From Escherichia phage phiE31-2, in the sequence record PP988008.1: 51,468 nt of DNA. The stretch is one strand, 5' to 3'. Position 1 is the stretch's first letter. The number at the start of each line of letters is the position of its first letter. Under the pieces are notes generated by a model. The model was given only the letters and a program-made list of their open reading frames with translations, was not told the origin of the DNA and did no database searches. Positions 1,716 through 36,076 of the stretch are shown one piece after another. A program made the position numbers and the translations under genes.

Positions 1716-2446
1716 TGATTAGTGCAAAAATAAAACTTGAAATAATGCAGCACGTAAAAGATGAATACCCGCGCGAGGCGTGCGGGGTTATCACTCAAAA
1801 ATCACGCGTGCAAAAATACCACCGCATAACCAACGTGCATGATGATCCTGAAAATCATTTTGAGATGAACGCAATTGAATACGTTGAGGCGTGTGAAAGT
1901 GGCGAGCTTATTGCTGTTGTGCATAGCCACACTGGAGACGGGGCAAGTACAATTCCAAGCGCCCATGATACATGCATGTGTGATGAAATGGGTGTTTCAT
2001 GGGTTATTGTGTCATGGCCCGAAGGTGATATGAGAATCATTGAGCCTGAATCTCGTCCTCTGATTGGTCGCCCGTGGTCGCTTGGTGCGTATGATTGCTG
2101 GGGGCTTATTATGGCATGGCACAAGCAACATGGCGTTATCCTTAATGATTTCAGGAAACCATATGAATGGTGGAAGCCTGAGTACGGTGAAAATCTTTAT
2201 CAAGAAAATTATCTGAAAGAGGGTTTTGTTGAAACAGGAGAGCCGCCAAAACCTGGTGATATGGTTATCTTTCAGCTTTCCGCGCCAGTGTGGAATCATG
2301 CAGGCATTTATCTTGGCAACAATCAGTTGCTTCATCATGCCTTTGGTAAGTTGTCGAGGGTTGATTTGTATTCTGGATGGTATCAGGAACATGCAAAAAT
2401 GGTTTGTAGACATAAGGATCTGAAATATGACTTTGAAGGTAATTAA
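1715..2446 (+). CDS. tail assembly protein (lambda gpK-like; MPN/JAB plus NlpC/P60-like)
   Basis: ATG overlaps L stop (ATGA); HSH-x-D metal-binding-like motif (VVHSHTGDG) and C-terminal Cys/His peptidase-like region; synteny. Confidence 0.8.
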   Translation: MISAKIKLEIMQHVKDEYPREACGVITQKSRVQKYHRITNVHDDPENHFEMNAIEYVEACESGELIAVVHSHTGDGASTIPSAHDTCMCDEMGVSWVIVSWPEGDMRIIEPESRPLIGRPWSLGAYDCWGLIMAWHKQHGVILNDFRKPYEWWKPEYGENLYQENYLKEGFVETGEPPKPGDMVIFQLSAPVWNHAGIYLGNNQLLHHAFGKLSRVDLYSGWYQEHAKMVCRHKDLKYDFEGN

Positions 2447-3103: not shown

Positions 3104-6100
3104 ATGGCTGAAAATATGATAACGGGCAGTAAGGGTGGATCATCAAAACCTTATGTTCCGAAAGAGATGGAAGATAACCTGATCTCAATCAACAAAATCA
3201 AAATCCTTCTTGCCGTTTCCGATGGTGAGTGTGATCCAGATTTTACACTTCGCGATCTGTATCTTGATGATGTTCCGGTAATTGCAGACGACGGAACTGT
3301 TAACTACCAGGGTGTGAAAGCTGAATTTCGACCTGGAACGCAGACGCAAGATTACATCAAGGGGTTTACTGACACATCAAGCGAAGTGACGCTGGCGCGT
3401 GACATTACTACATCAAATCCTTATGTAATTTCTGTAACCAACAAAACATTATCGGCTATCAGAATCAAAATGCTAATGCCAACAGGCATTAAGCAAGAGG
3501 ATAACGGCGATCTTGTCGGAGTTAAGGTTACTTATGCTGTTGATATGGCTGTTGACGGAGACTCTTACAAAGAAGTATTGCGAGACACTATCGAAGGTAA
3601 AACGCGTTCCGGTTACGACAGAAGCCGAAGGATTGACCTTCCGGCATTTAATGATCGCGTATTGCTTAGGGTTAGAAGGGTTACGGCAGACAGCGCATCA
3701 TCTCGCGTTACTGATCTGATTAAGCTACAAAGTTACGCTGAGGTTATTGATGCAAAATTCCGTTATCCTCTGACTGGTCTTGTATACGTTGAATTTGACA
3801 GTGAGTTGTTCCCTAACCAGATCCCTAACATTTCAATCAAGAAGAAATGGAAGCTGATTAACGTTCCGAGTAACTACGATCCTGTTTTGAGAGAGTATCA
3901 TGGTTCATGGGATGGTACTTTCAAGAAAGCGTGGTCGAACAATCCGGCGTGGGTTCTTTATGACATTATCACAAACCAGCGATACGGATTAGATCAGCGA
4001 GAACTTGGTGTGCAGGTTGACAAATGGAGTCTTTACGAAGCGGCGCAATACTGCGATCAGAAAGTGCCGGATGGAAAAGGCGGTACAGAGCCGCGTTATC
4101 TATGCGACGTTGTGATTCAAAGCCAGATTGAGGCTTATCAGCTTATTCGTGATATTTGCTCAATCTTCCGAGGCATGAGCTTTTGGAATGGCGAGAGCTT
4201 GTCAATCGTCATTGATAAGCCGCGCGATCCGTCGTACATCTTCACCAATGACAACGTTGTTGATGGTGATTTTCAGTACACAACAGCAAGCGAAAAGAGC
4301 ATGTACACGCAGTGCAACGTGACGTTTGACGACGAACAAAACATGTATCAACAGGACGTAGAGGGCGTATTCGACACAGAGGCCGCATTGCGCTTTGGAT
4401 ACAATCCGACAAGCATAACAGCGATCGGATGTACACGCAGGAGTGAGGCTAATCGTCGCGGTCGATGGATACTAAAAACCAACTTGCGCAGCACTACGGT
4501 AAACTTTGCTACTGGACTGGAAGGCATGATCCCATCAATAGGTGATGTGATTGCTATTGCTGACAACTTTCACAGCAGCAACCTGAAGTTAAACCTATCA
4601 GGGCGCGTGATGGAAGTTTCCGGCTTGCAGGTGTTCGTTCCGTTTAAGATTGACGCGCGACCAGGTGATTTCATTATCATCAACAAGCCGGACGGAAAGC
4701 CAGTTAAGCGCACAATCTCAAAAGTAAGCGGTGACGGAAAAACCATTGAGCTAAACATTGGGTTTGGGTTTGAAGTTAAGCCGGATACAGTTTTTGCAAT
4801 CGACCGCACTGATATTGCATTGCAGCAATACGTTGTAACGAGTATCGGCAAAGGTGATGATGATGATGAATTTACATACTCCATCACGGCTGTTGAATAT
4901 GACCCGAACAAATACGACGAGATTGATTATGGAGTAAACATTGACGACAGGCCAACTTCAATTGTCCAGCCTGACACAATGGCAGCGCCTGAAAATGTGC
5001 AAATATCCTCATACTCGCGAATTGTCCAGGGTGCAAGCGTTGAAACAATGGTTGTGTCGTGGGATAAAGTACCTTACGCATCGCTGTATGAAATGCAATG
5101 GCGAAAGGGTGATGGCAACTGGCTGAATACACCACAGACAGCAAACAAAGAAATTGAGGTTGAAGGTATTTATTCAGGAAACTACCAGGTAAGGGTTAGA
5201 TCTGTTTCCGCTTCAGGTTCTACGTCTCCGTGGTCCAGAATTGTGACAGCATCACTGACTGGTAAGGTAGGAGAGCCAGGCGCGCCAGTTAACTTAACCG
5301 CATCCGACAATGAAGTGTTTGGCATTCGTGTTAAGTGGGGGATGCCAGAAGGGAGCGGAGACACTGCATACATTGAGCTTCATCAGTCGCCAGATGGAAC
5401 AGCGGAAAACTCAAGACTGCTAACGCTGATCCCGTATCCACAATATGAATACTGGCATGGAACGCTTCCGGCTGGTCATGTTGTATGGTATCGGATCAGG
5501 AGCGTAGACAGGATCGGTAACGTTTCCGGTTGGACTGATTTTGTTAGAGGTATGGCTTCAGATGATGTGGAGGCTGTTTTAGGAGATATTCTTGATAAGA
5601 TTTTTGATACTGAAGCAGGTCAGGATCTTAAAGAGAACGCCATTGACAGTGCAAACAAGATAAAGGACCAGGCGCAAGCAATCATCCAGAATGCTCTTGC
5701 TAATGATGCTGATATTAAGTGGACGCGAGTACAAAATGGAAAGCGAAAGGCTGAATATGGTCACGCGCTTGAGCTTATCGCCACAGAGACTGAGGCGCGA
5801 GTTACGCAGATTGAAGAATTGAGGGCGTCAATCGACGAGGATATTGTTTCAAGCATAAAGACAGTGCAGGAGGCTATCGCCACAGAATCTGAAACGCGAG
5901 CAACTCAAATAAATGCTTTGGATTCAAAATTCACAACTGAAATTGACGGTGTAAAACGCGATACAGCCGCAAGCATTAATCAGGTGAATCAAACCATTGC
6001 CAATGAGTCAGAAGCGCGCGCGCAGGCCGTTAACGCGCTTGATGCGAAGTTCACAAAGGAGATCGAAGATTTAAACGGAGTCATTAAGACTGAGGTTGAG

Positions 6101-6682
6101 GCTAACATCTCTGAAGTGAAACAGGCTATCGCTAATGAGACAGAAGCAAGGGTGCAGGCTGACCAAGCGTTAACAGCTAAGTTCGGAGACGTTGAATCTG
6201 CATTAGCTCAAAAACTTGATTCGTGGGCTAACGTTGATTCGGTTGGCGCTAAGTACGCCATGAAATTGGGCCTTACTTACAACGGGCAGAAGTACAGCGC
6301 AGGAATGGTAATGCAGCTTTCTCAGAGTTCATCCGGCCTTATCTCGCAAATTTTGTTTGATGCGAATAGGTTTGCGATTATGACTAGCTCGACTGGCGGA
6401 GTGTATACGCTGCCTTTCGTTGTTGAAAATAACCAGGTATTCATCAATAGCTTGTTAGTTAAAAACGGATCAATAAACAATGCGATGATCGGTAACTTCA
6501 TCCAATCAAACAATTACGTTTGGAATCAAACAGGATGGAGGTTGGATAAAAACGGCACGTTTGAAAATTATGGTTCTACTCCTGGAGAGGGAGCCATGAA
6601 AATGACAAACGAAACGATCAGCGTTAGGGATGCAAACGGCGTTTTGCGTGTTCAGATTGGGCGTATCACAGGTTATTGGTAA
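3104..6682 (+). CDS. central tail fiber / host specificity protein (lambda gpJ-like)
   Basis: 1192 aa ORF after I; RBS AAGGTGA; coiled-coil repeat region in C-terminal third; position in tail module. Confidence 0.85.
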   Translation: MAENMITGSKGGSSKPYVPKEMEDNLISINKIKILLAVSDGECDPDFTLRDLYLDDVPVIADDGTVNYQGVKAEFRPGTQTQDYIKGFTDTSSEVTLARDITTSNPYVISVTNKTLSAIRIKMLMPTGIKQEDNGDLVGVKVTYAVDMAVDGDSYKEVLRDTIEGKTRSGYDRSRRIDLPAFNDRVLLRVRRVTADSASSRVTDLIKLQSYAEVIDAKFRYPLTGLVYVEFDSELFPNQIPNISIKKKWKLINVPSNYDPVLREYHGSWDGTFKKAWSNNPAWVLYDIITNQRYGLDQRELGVQVDKWSLYEAAQYCDQKVPDGKGGTEPRYLCDVVIQSQIEAYQLIRDICSIFRGMSFWNGESLSIVIDKPRDPSYIFTNDNVVDGDFQYTTASEKSMYTQCNVTFDDEQNMYQQDVEGVFDTEAALRFGYNPTSITAIGCTRRSEANRRGRWILKTNLRSTTVNFATGLEGMIPSIGDVIAIADNFHSSNLKLNLSGRVMEVSGLQVFVPFKIDARPGDFIIINKPDGKPVKRTISKVSGDGKTIELNIGFGFEVKPDTVFAIDRTDIALQQYVVTSIGKGDDDDEFTYSITAVEYDPNKYDEIDYGVNIDDRPTSIVQPDTMAAPENVQISSYSRIVQGASVETMVVSWDKVPYASLYEMQWRKGDGNWLNTPQTANKEIEVEGIYSGNYQVRVRSVSASGSTSPWSRIVTASLTGKVGEPGAPVNLTASDNEVFGIRVKWGMPEGSGDTAYIELHQSPDGTAENSRLLTLIPYPQYEYWHGTLPAGHVVWYRIRSVDRIGNVSGWTDFVRGMASDDVEAVLGDILDKIFDTEAGQDLKENAIDSANKIKDQAQAIIQNALANDADIKWTRVQNGKRKAEYGHALELIATETEARVTQIEELRASIDEDIVSSIKTVQEAIATESETRATQINALDSKFTTEIDGVKRDTAASINQVNQTIANESEARAQAVNALDAKFTKEIEDLNGVIKTEVEANISEVKQAIANETEARVQADQALTAKFGDVESALAQKLDSWANVDSVGAKYAMKLGLTYNGQKYSAGMVMQLSQSSSGLISQILFDANRFAIMTSSTGGVYTLPFVVENNQVFINSLLVKNGSINNAMIGNFIQSNNYVWNQTGWRLDKNGTFENYGSTPGEGAMKMTNETISVRDANGVLRVQIGRITGYW

Positions 6683-6688
6683 AAGCAA

Positions 6689-6716
6689 AGGGAGGCGCAT
6701 TGCCTCCCTTTTTTTA
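6689..6716. terminator. bidirectional terminator between J and convergent leftward operon
   Basis: GGGAGGC-GCATT-GCCTCCC followed by TTTTTTT, A/T-rich on the other side. Confidence 0.65.
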
Positions 6717-7331
6717 TTAGTCATATTTTGATGCGTCTATAGCAAGTATTGATGAAGAATAATAAACCCCAAGCGGACCAGGCGTTTGAGCAACCTGCTT
6801 TGATATTGAGTAAATATTTGATCCAGATGCGCCGGATTGTGATTCAAATATCATGTGACCGCCAAGTTGAGGATTTGGAACGGAGTTTATTGCCGTTTGA
6901 AATGGCGTTACAGCGCATGTATAACCCAAATAAACATCAAATGTTATTCCGCTAACTGGTATTTGGTGAGCCTCTAAAGGCTTCATTTTTCCGTGGTATG
7001 TCATTTGACCAGCGGAATTATAAAACGCTATTCCGTGACTACCAGGACTTGTTACCATATCGCTAAAAGCGTAAACCCTAATCCATCCAGGGTTGTCCGT
7101 CCTATCAATCCTAAGTGCATGATAACCACCATTATTTATGTGAGAAAAAGCAGTGTATGCACGAGATCCCATTCTCACAAAGAAAAAGCATACACGATCA
7201 AATGGTATTGATGTTTGATAAATGGAGCCGTTATAAACCCCCATATCACCTCGATTAATTAAATTCACAGGCGTAAAATCAGGACTTAGCCAAATTGACC
7301 CATCCGGCTTTGTGATCTGCATTCCGTACAT
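6717..7331 (-). CDS. hypothetical protein, candidate receptor-binding module component
   Basis: 204 aa; ATG 2 nt after stop of upstream gene (TAAcATG) with GGGGG RBS; Gly/Ser/Asn-rich; convergent with J and co-transcribed with lipoprotein. Confidence 0.5.
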   Translation of the reverse strand: MYGMQITKPDGSIWLSPDFTPVNLINRGDMGVYNGSIYQTSIPFDRVCFFFVRMGSRAYTAFSHINNGGYHALRIDRTDNPGWIRVYAFSDMVTSPGSHGIAFYNSAGQMTYHGKMKPLEAHQIPVSGITFDVYLGYTCAVTPFQTAINSVPNPQLGGHMIFESQSGASGSNIYSISKQVAQTPGPLGVYYSSSILAIDASKYD

Positions 7332-7332
7332 G

Positions 7333-7608
7333 TTACCCCCAAAACGTATATATATATCTTGACTCGCCAGCATTAAGACCAGACCACGAAACAGTATTCC
7401 CGCTAACGTTTATTGTTGGTGCTCCCCAGTTAACTCCAGCCCACGTCTGCGTTCCAATATATCCAGCCTTTAATGTTTTTCCTGGTGGCTGATTGTAATA
7501 TGTCTTGCTTCCTGATGGTTGTGTGAATCTATCCAGGAAGAATACAGGAGTTAATAAACCAGTAACATCCCTTCCTTGTTCGTCGTAAATTGCGTAACCG
7601 TATGCCAT
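7333..7608 (-). CDS. hypothetical protein, candidate receptor-binding module component
   Basis: 91 aa; ATG overlaps stop of lipoprotein gene (TAATG); N-terminus resembles that of the downstream 204-aa protein. Confidence 0.5.
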   Translation of the reverse strand: MAYGYAIYDEQGRDVTGLLTPVFFLDRFTQPSGSKTYYNQPPGKTLKAGYIGTQTWAGVNWGAPTINVSGNTVSWSGLNAGESRYIYTFWG

Positions 7609-7877
7609 TATTTGCACTCCACATAATCAAAATTATCCTCGCTTTGCCACCTGTGAACGAAAGTTACATATTTTTGTGATGGAGCTACGCGATAGTGTTT
7701 TTCACCGAATCTGTTTTCGCGCACAGCGTTTATTTTCACAGGATAGCTATCATTTACAGGGAATGTTTTCACCATGTATGAGCCAACGCAATCAACCTCT
7801 TTATAGCCCCCATCCATTGACGCAGAACAACCAGTCAGGGCAACGGCGGCAATCAAAACGGCTATTAACTTTTTCAT
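7608..7877 (-). CDS. outer-membrane lipoprotein, putative superinfection exclusion (Cor/Llp-like)
   Basis: Signal peptide MKKLIAVLIAAVALTGC with lipobox LTGC; AAGGAGA RBS; adjacent to tail-tip genes. Confidence 0.6.
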   Translation of the reverse strand: MKKLIAVLIAAVALTGCSASMDGGYKEVDCVGSYMVKTFPVNDSYPVKINAVRENRFGEKHYRVAPSQKYVTFVHRWQSEDNFDYVECK

Positions 7878-23574: not shown

Positions 23575-23973
23575 ATGAGAAAGTTATCAGCAATCGCGAT
23601 CGCTGTTATTTTGTCTGGATGTTCAAGCGTTACGCCACTGACCGGATTAATCGGTAGTAAGCCGGAAATCACAGCACAGGCAGGAGCGGAGAACGTAAAG
23701 CAGACCGTTGGCGTTACCGCAAAGCAGGACGCCAGCACAAAACAGGAAACTACAATAAAGGAATCTGCGGTTGATAAGGTGGACACTTCCAGCAAGAAGG
23801 ATTTCACTACGTCAACCATTCAGGCAAACACCATCAAGGCTGATAAAATCCAGGTTGTGCAGGGTGAGCAAAGGAAGTGGTACGATCCTATAATCTATTG
23901 CGCTGCAATTTTCAGTGGTCTTTTGTCAATGCTTTACTTTTCCTACCGCAAAGGCAACAAAAAGGAGGCTTAA
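23575..23973 (+). CDS. unimolecular spanin (u-spanin)
   Basis: 132 aa; N-terminal lipoprotein signal with lipobox LSGC plus C-terminal TMD (IIYCAAIFSGLLSMLYFSY); last gene of lysis cassette as in T1. Confidence 0.75.
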   Translation: MRKLSAIAIAVILSGCSSVTPLTGLIGSKPEITAQAGAENVKQTVGVTAKQDASTKQETTIKESAVDKVDTSSKKDFTTSTIQANTIKADKIQVVQGEQRKWYDPIIYCAAIFSGLLSMLYFSYRKGNKKEA

Positions 23974-30012: not shown

Positions 30013-30055
30013 AATATACCAGGTTATTCCGATCGTGTTTTAACAAAAAGTGCTA
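30013..30055 (-). promoter_or_regulatory. conserved-motif promoter-like element
   Basis: Minus strand TAGCACTTTTTGTTAAAAC - 18 nt - TATATT upstream of 29702..29974. Confidence 0.55.
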
Positions 30056-30269
30056 TTTGCTGACTGGTTATTATTCCATCTATTCCATTAATCAGGAATA
30101 ACAGGAATAAATCATTCGCGATCACCTGGATTGTGAGACTTTGAGTTTGATCAATTTTAATCAGTTGATTAACTTTTTGTGTGGAGGGGATAGAGAAACG
30201 CGGTCCTCTTGCGTCCTTTCCGGCAATCCTGGCGCGCGCATCTGTTATTTCTGTTCCCTGTGTTATCAC
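30024..30269 (-). CDS. possible first leftward early protein
   Basis: GTG start 7 nt after GGAGG; ~81 aa; 3' end reads through the promoter-like motif of the next gene. Confidence 0.3.
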   Translation of the reverse strand: MITQGTEITDARARIAGKDARGPRFSIPSTQKVNQLIKIDQTQSLTIQVIANDLFLLFLINGIDGIITSQQIALFVKTRSE

Positions 30270-30349
30270 AATCAAGCCTCCGCACTTTTAGATAACAGAT
30301 TCGGCGTTCATCAACAAAAAGAACAAAATAAATTTTATATATATACCCA

Positions 30350-30520
30350 TAAAATCAATAAGTTAGTTATATATGTATTTATATTTGTTATTTACTGTTG
30401 AGCTTGTTCTATGGGTATATGGTGGTGTTGTATTGTTTGTGGTGATATGTATGTGTGATTGTATATTTTTTAATCAATGGTGATGCGTGGTGATTTTTGT
30501 ATGTATATATATGGGTATGG
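30350..30520. repeat. AT-rich conserved core plus GTGAT(T) iteron cluster, copy B
   Basis: Homologous core and four or more GTGAT units; lies in the divergent early control region. Confidence 0.6.
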
Positions 30521-30645
30521 GGGAATCCTCCGTCAACCAAGTCAACAAGGTCATTTTTAACAGAGAAACCAATGTCTTAACTGAAGCATTTTGTTATCTT
30601 TAAACGCGCCACATGCCAAAAATTGTTATTAAAACACAAAATATA

Positions 30646-30674
30646 TTGACATGTAGGAAAGGCAAGGCAATAAT
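30646..30674 (+). promoter_or_regulatory. sigma70-like rightward early promoter
   Basis: TTGACA - 17 nt - AATAAT upstream of first rightward early gene. Confidence 0.5.
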
Positions 30675-30710
30675 GCATCCAGTTTAAACGCAACAAAAGG
30701 AGTAGACGCC

Positions 30711-31181
30711 ATGAATGAAGAAAATGTTAGTTCTATGTCGCGTAGTGAGTTCTGCGATATGCTTCGCGACTTGGGCGCGGCAATTGGTAGCGGCGAGCGT
30801 AACAATGTATTCATGCCAGCACTTTTCTTGTGCGCTAACGTGGAAAACGGCGACGCAATTACAGCCTCGTACATGCGCCAGGTGGTCAACCGTGTTCCAG
30901 AAGTAAAGCAAAAAGGCGTGATCAGCATTAAGCGAAAGGTGACTGATGAGGGTGATGGCTTTGTGTTTACGCTCACTGAAGCCAAAAGCAAGCCTCGCGT
31001 TCTGACTGGTGAAGATATAGCGAAACTTGAAATCAAGTGGCGAGCAAAGTTTATCGCTCAACTTCTGAAAACTCAGCCGAGAATCAGCGACCTGGAAGGC
31101 GAGCGCCTGGAGGGTGCAGCAATCGCACTTGAGCGAATGAATGAAATGCTTAGCGAGATGGTGAAGATGGGGGATGAATAA
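30711..31181 (+). CDS. hypothetical early protein
   Basis: 156 aa with AAAGGAG RBS; first rightward gene after AT-rich control region. Confidence 0.55.
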   Translation: MNEENVSSMSRSEFCDMLRDLGAAIGSGERNNVFMPALFLCANVENGDAITASYMRQVVNRVPEVKQKGVISIKRKVTDEGDGFVFTLTEAKSKPRVLTGEDIAKLEIKWRAKFIAQLLKTQPRISDLEGERLEGAAIALERMNEMLSEMVKMGDE

Positions 31182-31441
31182 TGAATAAGGCATTAATTGG
31201 AGTTTTGATTGCAATTGCTACCCTGACCGGATGCGAAAAGGCATCGGAATCAACAGTTGTCGTAGGAGTGGAGTCAGATTTTAAAGTCGGTCGCCTGTTT
31301 ACTGTTGATGGATGCACTGCGTACCGATTCTATGACAACGGTCGAGCAATCTATTACACCAATTGTAATGGCGCAACGGATAGCACATACCGCAGCGGCA
31401 AAAACGTAATGCACCAGCAAGTCACAACAGATATGAAATAG
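31181..31441 (+). CDS. early lipoprotein
   Basis: 86 aa; signal peptide with lipobox LTGC; TAATG overlap with upstream gene. Confidence 0.65.
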   Translation: MNKALIGVLIAIATLTGCEKASESTVVVGVESDFKVGRLFTVDGCTAYRFYDNGRAIYYTNCNGATDSTYRSGKNVMHQQVTTDMK

Positions 31442-31481
31442 CACTTTTTGTTAAAACGCCAGGTGCAAATCCTGGCATAAT
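31439..31481 (+). promoter_or_regulatory. conserved-motif promoter-like element
   Basis: TAGCACTTTTTGTTAAAAC - 18 nt (GCCAGG/CCTGGC) - CATAAT; TAG is stop of lipoprotein gene. Confidence 0.55.
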
Positions 31482-31513
31482 AGCCTCATCGAAACGAGAT
31501 TGAGGAAAACAAA

Positions 31514-35655: not shown

Positions 35656-35900
35656 AACGAATCTTTAAACCTGAATACCGGATCGTTGCTTGCACAGAAT
35701 GCAAGATTTATTACCTGCAACGCCGCCGCGTTATTGGTGGGGATTGGGAATATCTGACGGATGATGCTTTCGGCTTTTGGGCTATGGAGTTTAATAGTTA
35801 CAGTGAAGCGCGCGAATACGCTAAAAAGTTGCACAAGTTCCGACCTTACAAGCTGCGTTTGCTGGTTGTCAAAAAATGCGATGTGTGGGATCACGTATGA
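35637..35900 (+). CDS. hypothetical protein
   Basis: 87 aa ORF. Confidence 0.5.
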   Translation: MVFNALKRIFKPEYRIVACTECKIYYLQRRRVIGGDWEYLTDDAFGFWAMEFNSYSEAREYAKKLHKFRPYKLRLLVVKKCDVWDHV

Positions 35901-36076
35901 AAAGAGTAATTATCATTTTTATTGCCGTTATCGCTGGTTGTTACCTGGCTTATAATTATAGCGGTATTGTTGAGTCAATCGGCGGGTTGATTATCTTCAT
36001 GGCTGGTGGATATGCTGGCTATTGTGATGGATTCGAAAACGGAAAGCGTTACATGCTGACTGGAAAAAAGAAGTAA
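35897..36076 (+). CDS. small membrane protein
   Basis: 59 aa, two hydrophobic helices; ATGA overlap with upstream gene. Confidence 0.45.
   Translation: MKRVIIIFIAVIAGCYLAYNYSGIVESIGGLIIFMAGGYAGYCDGFENGKRYMLTGKKK

What the first reader, a model, noticed from the sequence alone, without database searches (positions are those of the whole stretch)
31181..31441. Early-expressed lipoprotein distinct from the tail-linked lipoprotein
This is a second lipoprotein (lipobox LTGC), unrelated in mature sequence to the one at 7608..7877, encoded as the second gene of the rightward early operon. An early OM lipoprotein is a classic way to block the phage receptor and prevent superinfection or progeny inactivation.
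Basis: inference. Interest (0 to 1): 0.45.

Follow-up and report, generated by a model that had tools for sequence, protein, structure and literature searches.

The report
Early phage lipoprotein of unknown function
This is a real, conserved small outer-membrane lipoprotein gene (family DUF4884) near the left end of a T1-like coliphage genome, but comparison with sister phages indicates it is not the protein that blocks the phage's own receptor, and its true role is still unknown.

Summary
The ORF at 31181..31441 (+) is real. It encodes 86 aa with a canonical lipoprotein signal peptide (lipobox LTGC, Cys18, Glu at +2) and a six-stranded beta domain. It is the second gene after a positionally conserved sigma-70-type promoter at the genome's left end. 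It belongs to DUF4884 (PF16225, PHROG 6360), a very large family of about 85-aa phage lipoproteins of unknown function (1,433 clusters at 50% identity).

The receptor-blocker reading is not supported. The window already carries a Cor-like lipoprotein inside the receptor-binding locus (7608..7877, minus strand). That locus is 99.5-100% identical to phage KarlJaspers, a BtuB user. The sister phage JakobBernoulli (FhuA user) has a completely different receptor locus and lipoprotein, yet its DUF4884 protein is 96.5% identical. LptD-using phages (Rtp, JeanPiccard) also carry the family, and Rtp's blocker is known to be Rtp45.

In unrelated phages the gene always lies in arrays of small early-type genes. 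It is never next to tail or lysis genes and has no conserved partner. No solved or viral structure matches the fold.

The best reading is a stand-alone, receptor-independent envelope effector. The mechanism is inferred, not shown.

The parts
30646..30674 (+). Sigma-70-type promoter-like site, TTGACA-17 nt-AATAAT, 37 nt upstream of the first gene of the unit.
   Evidence: 11 of 12 consensus matches; the -35 and -10 hexamers and their spacing are kept in relatives (L035, L041) whose flanking sequence has diverged. Function as a promoter is inferred.
30711..31181 (+). First gene of the unit: DUF7174 protein, 156 aa, with no signal peptide evident in the sequence. Its stop overlaps the lipoprotein start by one base.
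   Evidence: PF23796, 156 bits; phrog_4841. It lies upstream of DUF4884 only in Drexlerviridae.
31169..31174 (+). Shine-Dalgarno-like GGGGGA, 6 nt before the ATG.
   Evidence: Read directly from the sequence.
31181..31441 (+). DUF4884-family lipoprotein gene (86 aa plus stop): the finding itself.
   Evidence: PF16225, 24.4 bits, below the cut-off of 30. (phrog_6360, E=5e-12). (all 38 homologues carry PF16225). (107 of 113 family members match PF16225).
31181..31234 (+). Lipoprotein signal peptide MNKALIGVLIAIATLTGC. The lipobox is LTGC and the lipidated Cys18 codon is 31232..31234.
   Evidence: Cys18 is invariant in alignments A1 and A2. Cleavage and lipidation are inferred from the consensus, not shown.
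31235..31438 (+). Mature domain. It has a conserved tether (EKAxE) and six beta strands (residues 24-28, 34-42, 45-52, 55-60, 64-72, 75-83). The core is RLFTVDGCTAYRFYDNGRAIYYTNC. Cys45 and Cys62 lie opposite each other across the strand 3/strand 4 hairpin, so a disulfide is likely.
   Evidence: AlphaFold2 model with a 113-sequence alignment: pLDDT 89.7, pTM 0.70. Conservation. The disulfide is inferred from the strand register.
31458..31476 (+). GC-rich hairpin (GCCAGG-7 nt-CCTGGC) in the 72-nt spacer after the gene. No T-run follows it.
   Evidence: not called as a terminator; spacer fold -20.6 kcal/mol, z = -3.7. Role unknown.
7608..7877 (-). Comparator: the Cor-like exclusion lipoprotein (89 aa, also LTGC) of the receptor-binding locus. 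It is the probable cognate receptor blocker.
   Evidence: phrog_1119 Cor, E=4e-11. (NF047972, below cut-off). (100% identical to KarlJaspers, a BtuB user).
6717..7617 (-). Comparator: the two other genes of the receptor-binding locus downstream of the J-like tail tip gene (3104..6682). They encode 218 aa and 94 aa.
   Evidence: phrog_425, phrog_557. (100% identical to KarlJaspers; absent from the FhuA-type loci of JakobBernoulli and PeterMerian).
23575..23973 (+). Comparator: the third lipoprotein of the window, a spanin-like lysis protein (132 aa, lipobox LSGC).
   Evidence: (phrog_1804 Rz-like spanin, E=7e-49).

Best explanation
The gene encodes a stand-alone accessory lipoprotein of the DUF4884 family.

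Shown:
- It is a conserved gene under purifying selection with an invariant lipobox cysteine.
- It is the second gene after a conserved host-type promoter at the left end of a Hanrivervirus-like (T1-like) genome.
- Its homologues sit in arrays of small co-directional genes in many unrelated virulent and temperate phages.
- They have no conserved partner gene.
- Its alleles do not track the phage's receptor.

Inferred:
- Host RNA polymerase transcribes it soon after infection.
- The precursor is exported, lipidated at Cys18 and cleaved.
- Because residue +2 is Glu, the Lol system carries it to the inner leaflet of the outer membrane.
- There its roughly 65-residue, probably disulfide-stapled beta-sheet domain and its unusually conserved tether bind an envelope component common to Gram-negative hosts, or a common part of incoming phages' entry machinery. 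The target is not BtuB, FhuA or LptD specifically.

The most likely benefit is receptor-independent protection or conditioning of the infected cell's envelope. In logic this is closer to T4 Sp or Imm than to T5 Llp. Cognate receptor blocking would be left to the Cor-like lipoprotein in the tail locus.
For: - Real gene and lipoprotein.
- Family: PF16225 and phrog_6360. There are 1,433 clusters at 50% identity with E<=1e-3, almost all 80-100 aa with a signal peptide and lipobox.
- Promoter and its conservation.
- Many database records of relatives start 0.5-1.3 kb upstream of the gene. T1's left 2.8 kb is annotated as a terminal repeat.
- Receptor decoupling, the natural experiment. Rtp45 is Rtp's blocker while rtp3 is the DUF4884 homologue.
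- Context elsewhere: Dolphis gp86, MTx_093 and BUDD, and 84-kb and 166-kb metagenomic phage contigs. All show long arrays of small genes near replication or nucleotide-metabolism genes.
- In 11 Pseudomonas loci (bacterial-genome and viral-collection contigs, so likely temperate phages or prophages) the gene lies 1-3 kb upstream of a lambda-type integrase on the same strand.
- No neighbouring family is shared by more than 5 of 47 DUF4884 groups.
- High-confidence all-beta model.
Against: - No experiment or transcript data exist for any family member.
- The target is unknown, and no fold or sequence match gives a functional lead.
- Early timing rests only on promoter type and position.
- The window protein scores below Pfam's gathering threshold (24.4 versus 30 bits).
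- Receptor decoupling rules out a receptor-specific blocker. It does not rule out one aimed at a feature shared by several receptors.
- Bacteroides-type members lack the Cys45/Cys62 pair, so the disulfide is not universal.
Confidence: 0.55

Rival explanations
1. One reading: an early outer-membrane lipoprotein binds the phage's own terminal receptor from the periplasmic side. This prevents superinfection and the loss of progeny on debris, as T5 Llp, Cor and Rtp45 do.
For: It resembles Llp and Rtp45 in being a small phage lipoprotein with a probable disulfide and predicted outer-membrane sorting. It is promoter-proximal.
Against: Alleles do not co-vary with receptor. They are 96.5-98.8% identical between a BtuB user and an FhuA user of one genus whose receptor loci are non-homologous. 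The family is present in LptD users, whose blocker is Rtp45. The window already has a Cor-like gene in the receptor locus. The gene is never linked to tail genes in other phages. The core is strongly conserved across phages of different host phyla. There is no sequence or fold similarity to Llp, Cor or Rtp45.
Confidence: 0.1
2. Counter-defence factor: the lipoprotein neutralises an envelope-associated host anti-phage system or a stress-sensing pathway that would otherwise abort infection.
For: It lies among small early accessory genes, where anti-defence genes typically sit. It is patchily distributed and exchanged as a cassette between near-identical phages such as FritzSarasin and tonnikala. 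It is absent from T1.
Against: It has no match to PADLOC models. No conserved host partner is known. Very broad conservation of the core across host phyla argues for a universal target rather than a sporadic defence system.
Confidence: 0.15
3. Lysis-related accessory protein: an outer-membrane lipoprotein that tunes the last step of lysis or protects against premature envelope rupture.
For: Phage lipoproteins are often spanin components. The window's spanin-like protein is also a lipoprotein.
Against: The gene lies about 7 kb from the spanin gene, in another transcription unit. It has no C-terminal transmembrane segment and no proline-rich o-spanin character. It was not seen next to annotated lysis genes in the other phages examined, and no neighbouring family recurs widely.
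Confidence: 0.08
4. Dispensable passenger gene with no significant role in this phage.
For: It is accessory: absent from T1 and from many Drexlerviridae. The 3-kb region matched 179 phage records, whereas 119 phage records carry the gene.
Against: dN/dS is 0.05-0.29. The lipobox and core are invariant across more than 100 diverse homologues. The family is very large. Translational coupling is preserved.
Confidence: 0.05

Closest known systems
Pfam DUF4884 (PF16225) / PHROG 6360: small lipoproteins of unknown function
   Same: This is the family it belongs to. Members share the length, the signal peptide plus lipobox, and the core F.V..LF..DGC.VYRF.D.G...YFTNC.G. Close relatives in GenBank are already labelled 'DUF4884 domain-containing protein' (Henu8 gp6, JLBYU phages, Dolphis gp86).
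   Different: The window protein scores 24.4 bits, below Pfam's cut-off of 30. It lacks the second Cys pair (CGKNC) that many members have near the C-terminus. No member has a known function.
T5 Llp (FhuA-blocking early lipoprotein)
   Same: A small phage-encoded lipoprotein made early. It is anchored at the periplasmic face of the outer membrane and stabilised by a disulfide (PMC9586334, as summarised in PMC12685063).
   Different: There is no sequence hit and no fold hit. From general knowledge, the llp gene lies next to the receptor-binding protein gene. This gene is unlinked to the tail genes and is decoupled from the receptor.
Cor / Rtp45-type exclusion lipoproteins of T1-like phages
   Same: They occur in the same phage family, share the type of signal peptide (even the same LTGC lipobox) and are of similar size.
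   Different: Those genes lie in the receptor-binding locus downstream of gpJ and swap together with it. The window's own copy is at 7608..7877 (minus strand). The mature sequences are unrelated. The DUF4884 protein does not hit phrog_1119 or NF047972.
T4 Sp (spackle) and Imm (receptor-independent exclusion)
   Same: From general knowledge of T4: early envelope-located proteins that protect the infected cell regardless of which receptor the incoming phage uses. This is the closest functional analogy to the favoured explanation.
   Different: The analogy rests on reasoning only. They are not lipoproteins, no homology was tested or expected, and no evidence shows that DUF4884 blocks DNA entry or tail lysozymes.
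Spanin lipoproteins (Rz1-type o-spanins, T1 gp11-type u-spanins)
   Same: Phage outer-membrane lipoproteins.
   Different: Spanins sit in lysis cassettes and have a proline-rich periplasmic domain or a C-terminal transmembrane segment. This protein has neither feature, and the window has its own spanin-like gene at 23575..23973.

Membership tests
Bacterial or phage lipoprotein (signal peptidase II substrate) | An N-terminal positive residue, an uncharged hydrophobic stretch, a lipobox [LVI][ASTVI][GAS]C, and the Cys at position 15-35. | tested here: met
   MNKALIGVLIAIATLTGC, with Lys3 and Cys18. The Cys is invariant in 113 homologues. The rule was applied by hand.
Bacterial or phage lipoprotein (signal peptidase II substrate) | Actual lipidation and cleavage, and outer-membrane localisation. 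| not testable with these tools
   Needs palmitate labelling, globomycin treatment and membrane fractionation. Outer-membrane sorting is inferred from Glu at +2 (no Asp).
DUF4884 (PF16225) | A match to the Pfam HMM at or above the gathering score of 30 bits. | tested here: not met
   24.4 bits, E=2.4e-5, residues 32-60.
DUF4884 (PF16225) | Homology to bona fide members, shown by continuity through a profile. | tested here: met
   All 38 first-round homologues, and all homologues listed, carry PF16225. 107 of 113 aligned relatives match PF16225 at E<=1e-3. phrog_6360 matches at E=5e-12.
Cor superinfection-exclusion lipoproteins (phrog_1119 / NF047972) | Sequence similarity to Cor. | tested here: not met
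   No hit in PHROGs or NCBIfam. BLASTP against the window's Cor-like protein gives no alignment at E<=100.
Cor / Llp / Rtp45-type receptor blockers (functional class) | The gene is linked to the receptor-binding protein locus and co-varies with receptor specificity. | tested here: not met
   The gene is about 23 kb from the gpJ locus. It is 96.5-98.8% identical between BtuB and FhuA users, whose receptor loci are non-homologous.
Cor / Llp / Rtp45-type receptor blockers (functional class) | Expression blocks adsorption through the cognate receptor. | not testable with these tools
   Requires adsorption and plating assays.
T5 Llp | Sequence or fold similarity to the solved Llp structure. | tested here: not met
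Spanins (o-spanin / u-spanin) | Location in the lysis cassette, with a proline-rich domain or a C-terminal transmembrane segment. | tested here: not met
   The gene lies about 7 kb from the spanin-like gene. It has no C-terminal hydrophobic segment.
Early gene | Transcribed by host RNA polymerase soon after infection. | tested here: inconclusive
   A strong, positionally conserved sigma-70-like site lies upstream. No transcript data were found.

The most novel reading that the evidence does not exclude
DUF4884 could be a previously unrecognised, very widespread class of receptor-independent phage envelope effectors. Each would be a single early lipoprotein that docks on a universal outer-membrane or periplasmic machine of Gram-negative bacteria (for example Bam, Lpt, Lol, Tol-Pal or cell-wall enzymes), or on the entry apparatus of incoming phages. 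It would thereby give general superinfection exclusion or envelope protection across siphophages, myophages, jumbo phages and prophages.
Probability: 0.3. Interest if true: 0.65.

Novelty: new member of a known kind. Interest (0 to 1): 0.3.

Why it matters
For this window the result is mostly corrective. The receptor-blocking role belongs to the Cor-like gene in the tail locus, not to this gene.

More broadly, DUF4884 is one of the larger families of phage lipoproteins with no assigned function. It spans about 1,400 clusters at 50% identity, in virulent and temperate phages of several Gram-negative phyla. Its core is conserved enough to imply a common envelope target.

The BASEL phages give a ready-made test set. 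KarlJaspers and JakobBernoulli have the same DUF4884 allele but different receptors. FritzSarasin and tonnikala have similarly scoring Cor-like proteins (probably the same allele) but different DUF4884 alleles. A few plating and adsorption experiments could therefore settle what the family does.

Tried and rejected
- Foldseek against the PDB using the first, shallow model (pLDDT 65) found nothing with E<=0.001.
- A BFVD search returned only family members.
- The afdb50 library was unavailable.
- A profile search of PDB sequences hit only designed repeat proteins, by chance.
- PADLOC gave no hit. NCBIfam matched only signal-peptide-level noise.
- The genome-contig scan used a narrow peptide pattern and returned only 11 loci, mostly Pseudomonas. 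A first attempt with the wide alignment failed.
- The search for a conserved neighbouring gene across 94 loci and 47 groups found none.
- Literature searches for DUF4884, for early lipoproteins of T1-like phages and for Drexlerviridae transcriptomes found no functional or timing data.
- The simple scan found no minus-strand promoter for the Cor-like operon.
- I first took the window phage for an FhuA user because of the 'Cor' label. I rejected that after finding the locus identical to that of BtuB-using KarlJaspers.

Full report
**What is there**

The window is a T1-like siphophage genome (Drexlerviridae, Tempevirinae, Hanrivervirus-like). The region around the finding is 93% identical in DNA to Escherichia phage KarlJaspers (Bas06).

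The ORF at 31181..31441 (+) exists as described and encodes 86 aa: MNKALIGVLIAIATLTGCEKASESTVVVGVESDFKVGRLFTVDGCTAYRFYDNGRAIYYTNCNGATDSTYRSGKNVMHQQVTTDMK.

- The N-terminus has Lys3, twelve uncharged residues and L-T-G-C with Cys18. By my own hand check this satisfies the standard lipobox rule.
- Residue +2 is Glu. The Lol-avoidance rule (Asp at +2 keeps a lipoprotein in the inner membrane) therefore predicts outer-membrane sorting. That rule is established knowledge; the sorting itself is inferred.
- A GGGGGA motif lies 6 nt before the ATG.
- The ATG overlaps the stop of the upstream gene (TAATG).

**The lipobox and the gene are not chance**

- In 22 close homologues L15, G17 and C18 are invariant, as are C45 and C62.
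- In 113 diverse homologues C18, F40, F50 and D52 are invariant. L39, G44, C45, Y48, R49, Y58, C62, G64, G73 and K74 are at least 90% conserved.
- Among four close alleles dN/dS is 0.05-0.29.

**Operon position and timing**

- A TTGACA-17-AATAAT site (11/12 match) lies at 30646..30674. It is followed by a DUF7174 gene at 30711..31181 and then by the lipoprotein gene.
- The two hexamers and their spacing persist in relatives whose flanking sequence has diverged: TTGACA-17-GATAAT in L035 and TTGACA-17-TATAAT in L041.
- Upstream is a roughly 660-bp gene-free, AT-rich stretch. Many database records of relatives begin within it, about 0.5-1.3 kb before the gene.
- In T1 the corresponding left 2.8 kb is annotated as a terminal repeat.

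So 'second gene of the rightward unit at the left genome end' is right. 'Early' is a reasonable inference from a host-type promoter, but I found no transcript data for this phage family.

**Family**

- The protein matches Pfam DUF4884 (PF16225) at 24.4 bits, below the cut-off of 30. It matches PHROG 6360 at E=5e-12.
- All 38 first-round homologues carry PF16225, and 107 of 113 aligned relatives match it on their own.
- A profile search of 1.84 billion cluster representatives found 1,433 clusters at E<=1e-3 and 392 at E<=1e-10. Almost all are 80-100 aa, with a signal peptide, a lipobox Cys and the core F.V..LF..DGC.VYRF.D.G...YFTNC.G.
- tblastn finds the gene in 119 phage records. These include many Drexlerviridae (Rtp gene rtp3 among them), Serratia myophages, Pseudomonas phage Dolphis, the Xanthomonas jumbo phage BUDD, and Erwinia and Pantoea phages.
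- T1 itself lacks it.
- No paper assigns a function. The only two mentions are a genome table and a Bacteroides proteomics list.

**Structure**

- With a shallow alignment the model was poor (pLDDT 65). With 113 sequences it reached pLDDT 89.7 and pTM 0.70.
- The model has a signal helix, a short conserved tether and six antiparallel strands forming a meander.
- In the strand 3/strand 4 hairpin, residue i pairs with residue 107-i. Cys45 and Cys62 are therefore cross-strand neighbours, which makes a disulfide likely (inference).
- BFVD returned only family members.
- The profile found nothing relevant among PDB sequences.

**Test of the receptor-blocker idea**

The window has three credible lipoproteins. 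One is the spanin-like protein at 23575..23973. One is this protein. The third is a Cor-like protein at 7608..7877 on the minus strand (phrog_1119, E=4e-11).

The Cor-like gene lies with two other minus-strand genes directly after the J-like tail tip gene. This is the locus that the BASEL study matched to terminal-receptor specificity, together with cognate exclusion proteins (PMC8594841).

The window's J protein, both locus genes and the Cor-like protein are 99.5-100% identical to those of KarlJaspers. KarlJaspers uses BtuB (S5 table), so the window phage almost certainly uses BtuB.

| Phage | Receptor | DUF4884 identity to window | Receptor locus |
|---|---|---|---|
| KarlJaspers | BtuB | 98.8% | 99.5-100% identical to the window |
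| JakobBernoulli | FhuA | 96.5% | Non-homologous |
| FritzSarasin | BtuB | 90.7% | Same architecture; Cor-like protein 56.8% identical |
| PeterMerian | FhuA | 89.5% | FhuA type, like JakobBernoulli |
| JeanPiccard | LptD | 55.8% | Not examined |
| Rtp | LptD (LptDE) | 55.8% | Blocker is Rtp45 |

- JakobBernoulli belongs to the same genus. Its J N-terminus is 99% and its exonuclease VIII 98% identical to the window's. Its receptor locus nevertheless has two plus-strand genes and a different 75-aa lipoprotein.
- tonnikala is FritzSarasin's closest relative (about 95% ANI). Both have a Cor-like protein equally distant (56.8%) from the window's, probably the same allele. Yet tonnikala has only a 45% DUF4884 allele.
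- In Rtp the blocker has been solved bound to LptDE. It is Rtp45, the tail-linked lipoprotein (PMC12685063). rtp3, the DUF4884 homologue, is a separate gene at the left end.

The tail-linked lipoprotein therefore swaps with the receptor module, and the DUF4884 gene does not. The two mature proteins are unrelated.

**Context in other phages**

- In Dolphis, MTx and BUDD the gene sits inside long runs of small co-directional hypothetical genes near primase, helicase, polynucleotide kinase or exonuclease genes. The same holds in 84-kb and 166-kb metagenomic phage contigs. It is never next to tail-fibre or lysis genes.
- I clustered all ORFs within 3.5 kb of the gene in 94 loci, which represent 47 DUF4884 groups. 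No neighbouring family occurred in more than 5 groups.
- DUF7174 is the upstream neighbour only in Drexlerviridae, usually with overlapping stop and start.
- In 11 Pseudomonas loci (bacterial-genome and viral-collection contigs, so likely temperate phages or prophages) a lambda-type integrase lies 1-3 kb downstream on the same strand. This is the position of non-essential early-left genes in lambdoid phages (general knowledge).

The gene therefore behaves as a stand-alone accessory cassette of early regions.

**Most likely mechanism**

- Shown: gene, lipobox, family, position, lack of a partner, and decoupling from the receptor.
- Inferred: early transcription by host polymerase, lipidation at Cys18, Lol transport to the inner leaflet of the outer membrane, and binding of a target common to Gram-negative envelopes or to incoming phages' entry machinery.

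Three things argue for a conserved target: the very strong conservation of the core and even of the tether (E19, K20, A21 and E23 are at least 90% conserved in close relatives), the spread across host phyla, and the interchange of alleles between near-identical phages.

I favour receptor-independent protection or conditioning of the infected envelope. This is analogous in logic to T4 Sp or Imm, with cognate receptor blocking left to the Cor-like gene.

| Reading | Probability |
|---|---|
| Receptor-independent envelope effector (the class) | about 0.55 |
| Any particular target within that class | much lower |
| Counter-defence factor | 0.15 |
| Cognate receptor blocker | 0.10 |
| Lysis accessory protein | 0.08 |
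| Passenger gene with no role | 0.05 |

**Novelty and verdict**

The lipoprotein and operon parts of the interpretation hold, and the receptor-blocking part is contradicted by comparative evidence.

The object is a new member of a known family of unknown function, and relatives are already annotated as DUF4884. Interest is modest (0.3). It would rise if the family proves to be a general envelope effector.

Noticed in passing
window 7608..7877 (-), with 6717..7373 (-) and 7333..7617 (-): The 'Cor'-labelled locus is 100% identical to that of KarlJaspers, which uses BtuB experimentally. A recent paper describes the Cor cassette as a feature of FhuA-targeting BASEL phages (PMC13164509). So the same three-gene architecture seems to serve different receptors through different alleles (FritzSarasin's Cor-like protein is 56.8% identical).
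   Followed up: partly
L101 (phage T1, NC_005833) 2099..2272: T1 lacks DUF4884. However, its gene ST72 (57 aa, MMRILICMMAAVAMAILVVSGCGEARD...) looks like a different small lipoprotein in the same left-end array of small genes, inside the annotated 2.8-kb terminal repeat.
   Followed up: no
window 30047..30710: A roughly 660-bp gene-free, AT-rich stretch lies between divergent gene blocks. It has several imperfect inverted repeats, including arms at 30035-30049 and 30623-30637 that flank the whole region. Several relatives' records begin inside it, so it probably holds the packaging start or genome end.
   Followed up: partly
window 31442..31513: The 72-nt spacer after the lipoprotein gene folds into two hairpins (-20.6 kcal/mol, z = -3.7 against shuffles). 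It has no T-run, so it is not a standard terminator. Its role is unknown.
   Followed up: partly
L003-L010, L026, L031-L034, L037, L040 and others (Pseudomonas loci): Pseudomonas members carry a conserved roughly 35-aa C-terminal extension (…NERQLSPHETQPEPTPALAPGRWIDERYQL) that enterobacterial phage members lack.
   Followed up: no
L067, L068, L073, L090-L096 (probably Bacteroides-type phages): One subgroup replaces both core cysteines (DGITVYRF … YFTNRTG) and has a single Cys near the C-terminus. The putative disulfide is therefore dispensable in these, presumably anaerobe-infecting, phages.
   Followed up: no
L103-L105, gene at 5070..5999 of L103: In one group of metagenomic phages the DUF4884 gene directly follows a Band_7 (SPFH/stomatin-like) membrane protein gene with a 1-nt gap. 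This was not seen elsewhere.
   Followed up: no
Phage records MG065636, MG065643, MG065657, MG065680, MG065681 and others: About 20 records named 'Campylobacter phage', with host given as C. jejuni, are about 90% identical to this coliphage. They carry the same DUF4884 and Cor-like genes. They look like T1-like coliphage sequences deposited under a doubtful host label.
   Followed up: no
window 35897..36076 (+): A small ORF (59 aa, MKRVIIIFIAVIAGCYLAYNY…) has a lipobox-like IAGC, but hydrophobic residues follow it. It is more likely a small membrane protein than a lipoprotein.
   Followed up: no
window 6687..6711: A strong hairpin with T-runs on both sides (11-bp stem) lies between the J-like gene and the convergent Cor-like operon. 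It looks like a bidirectional terminator.
   Followed up: no
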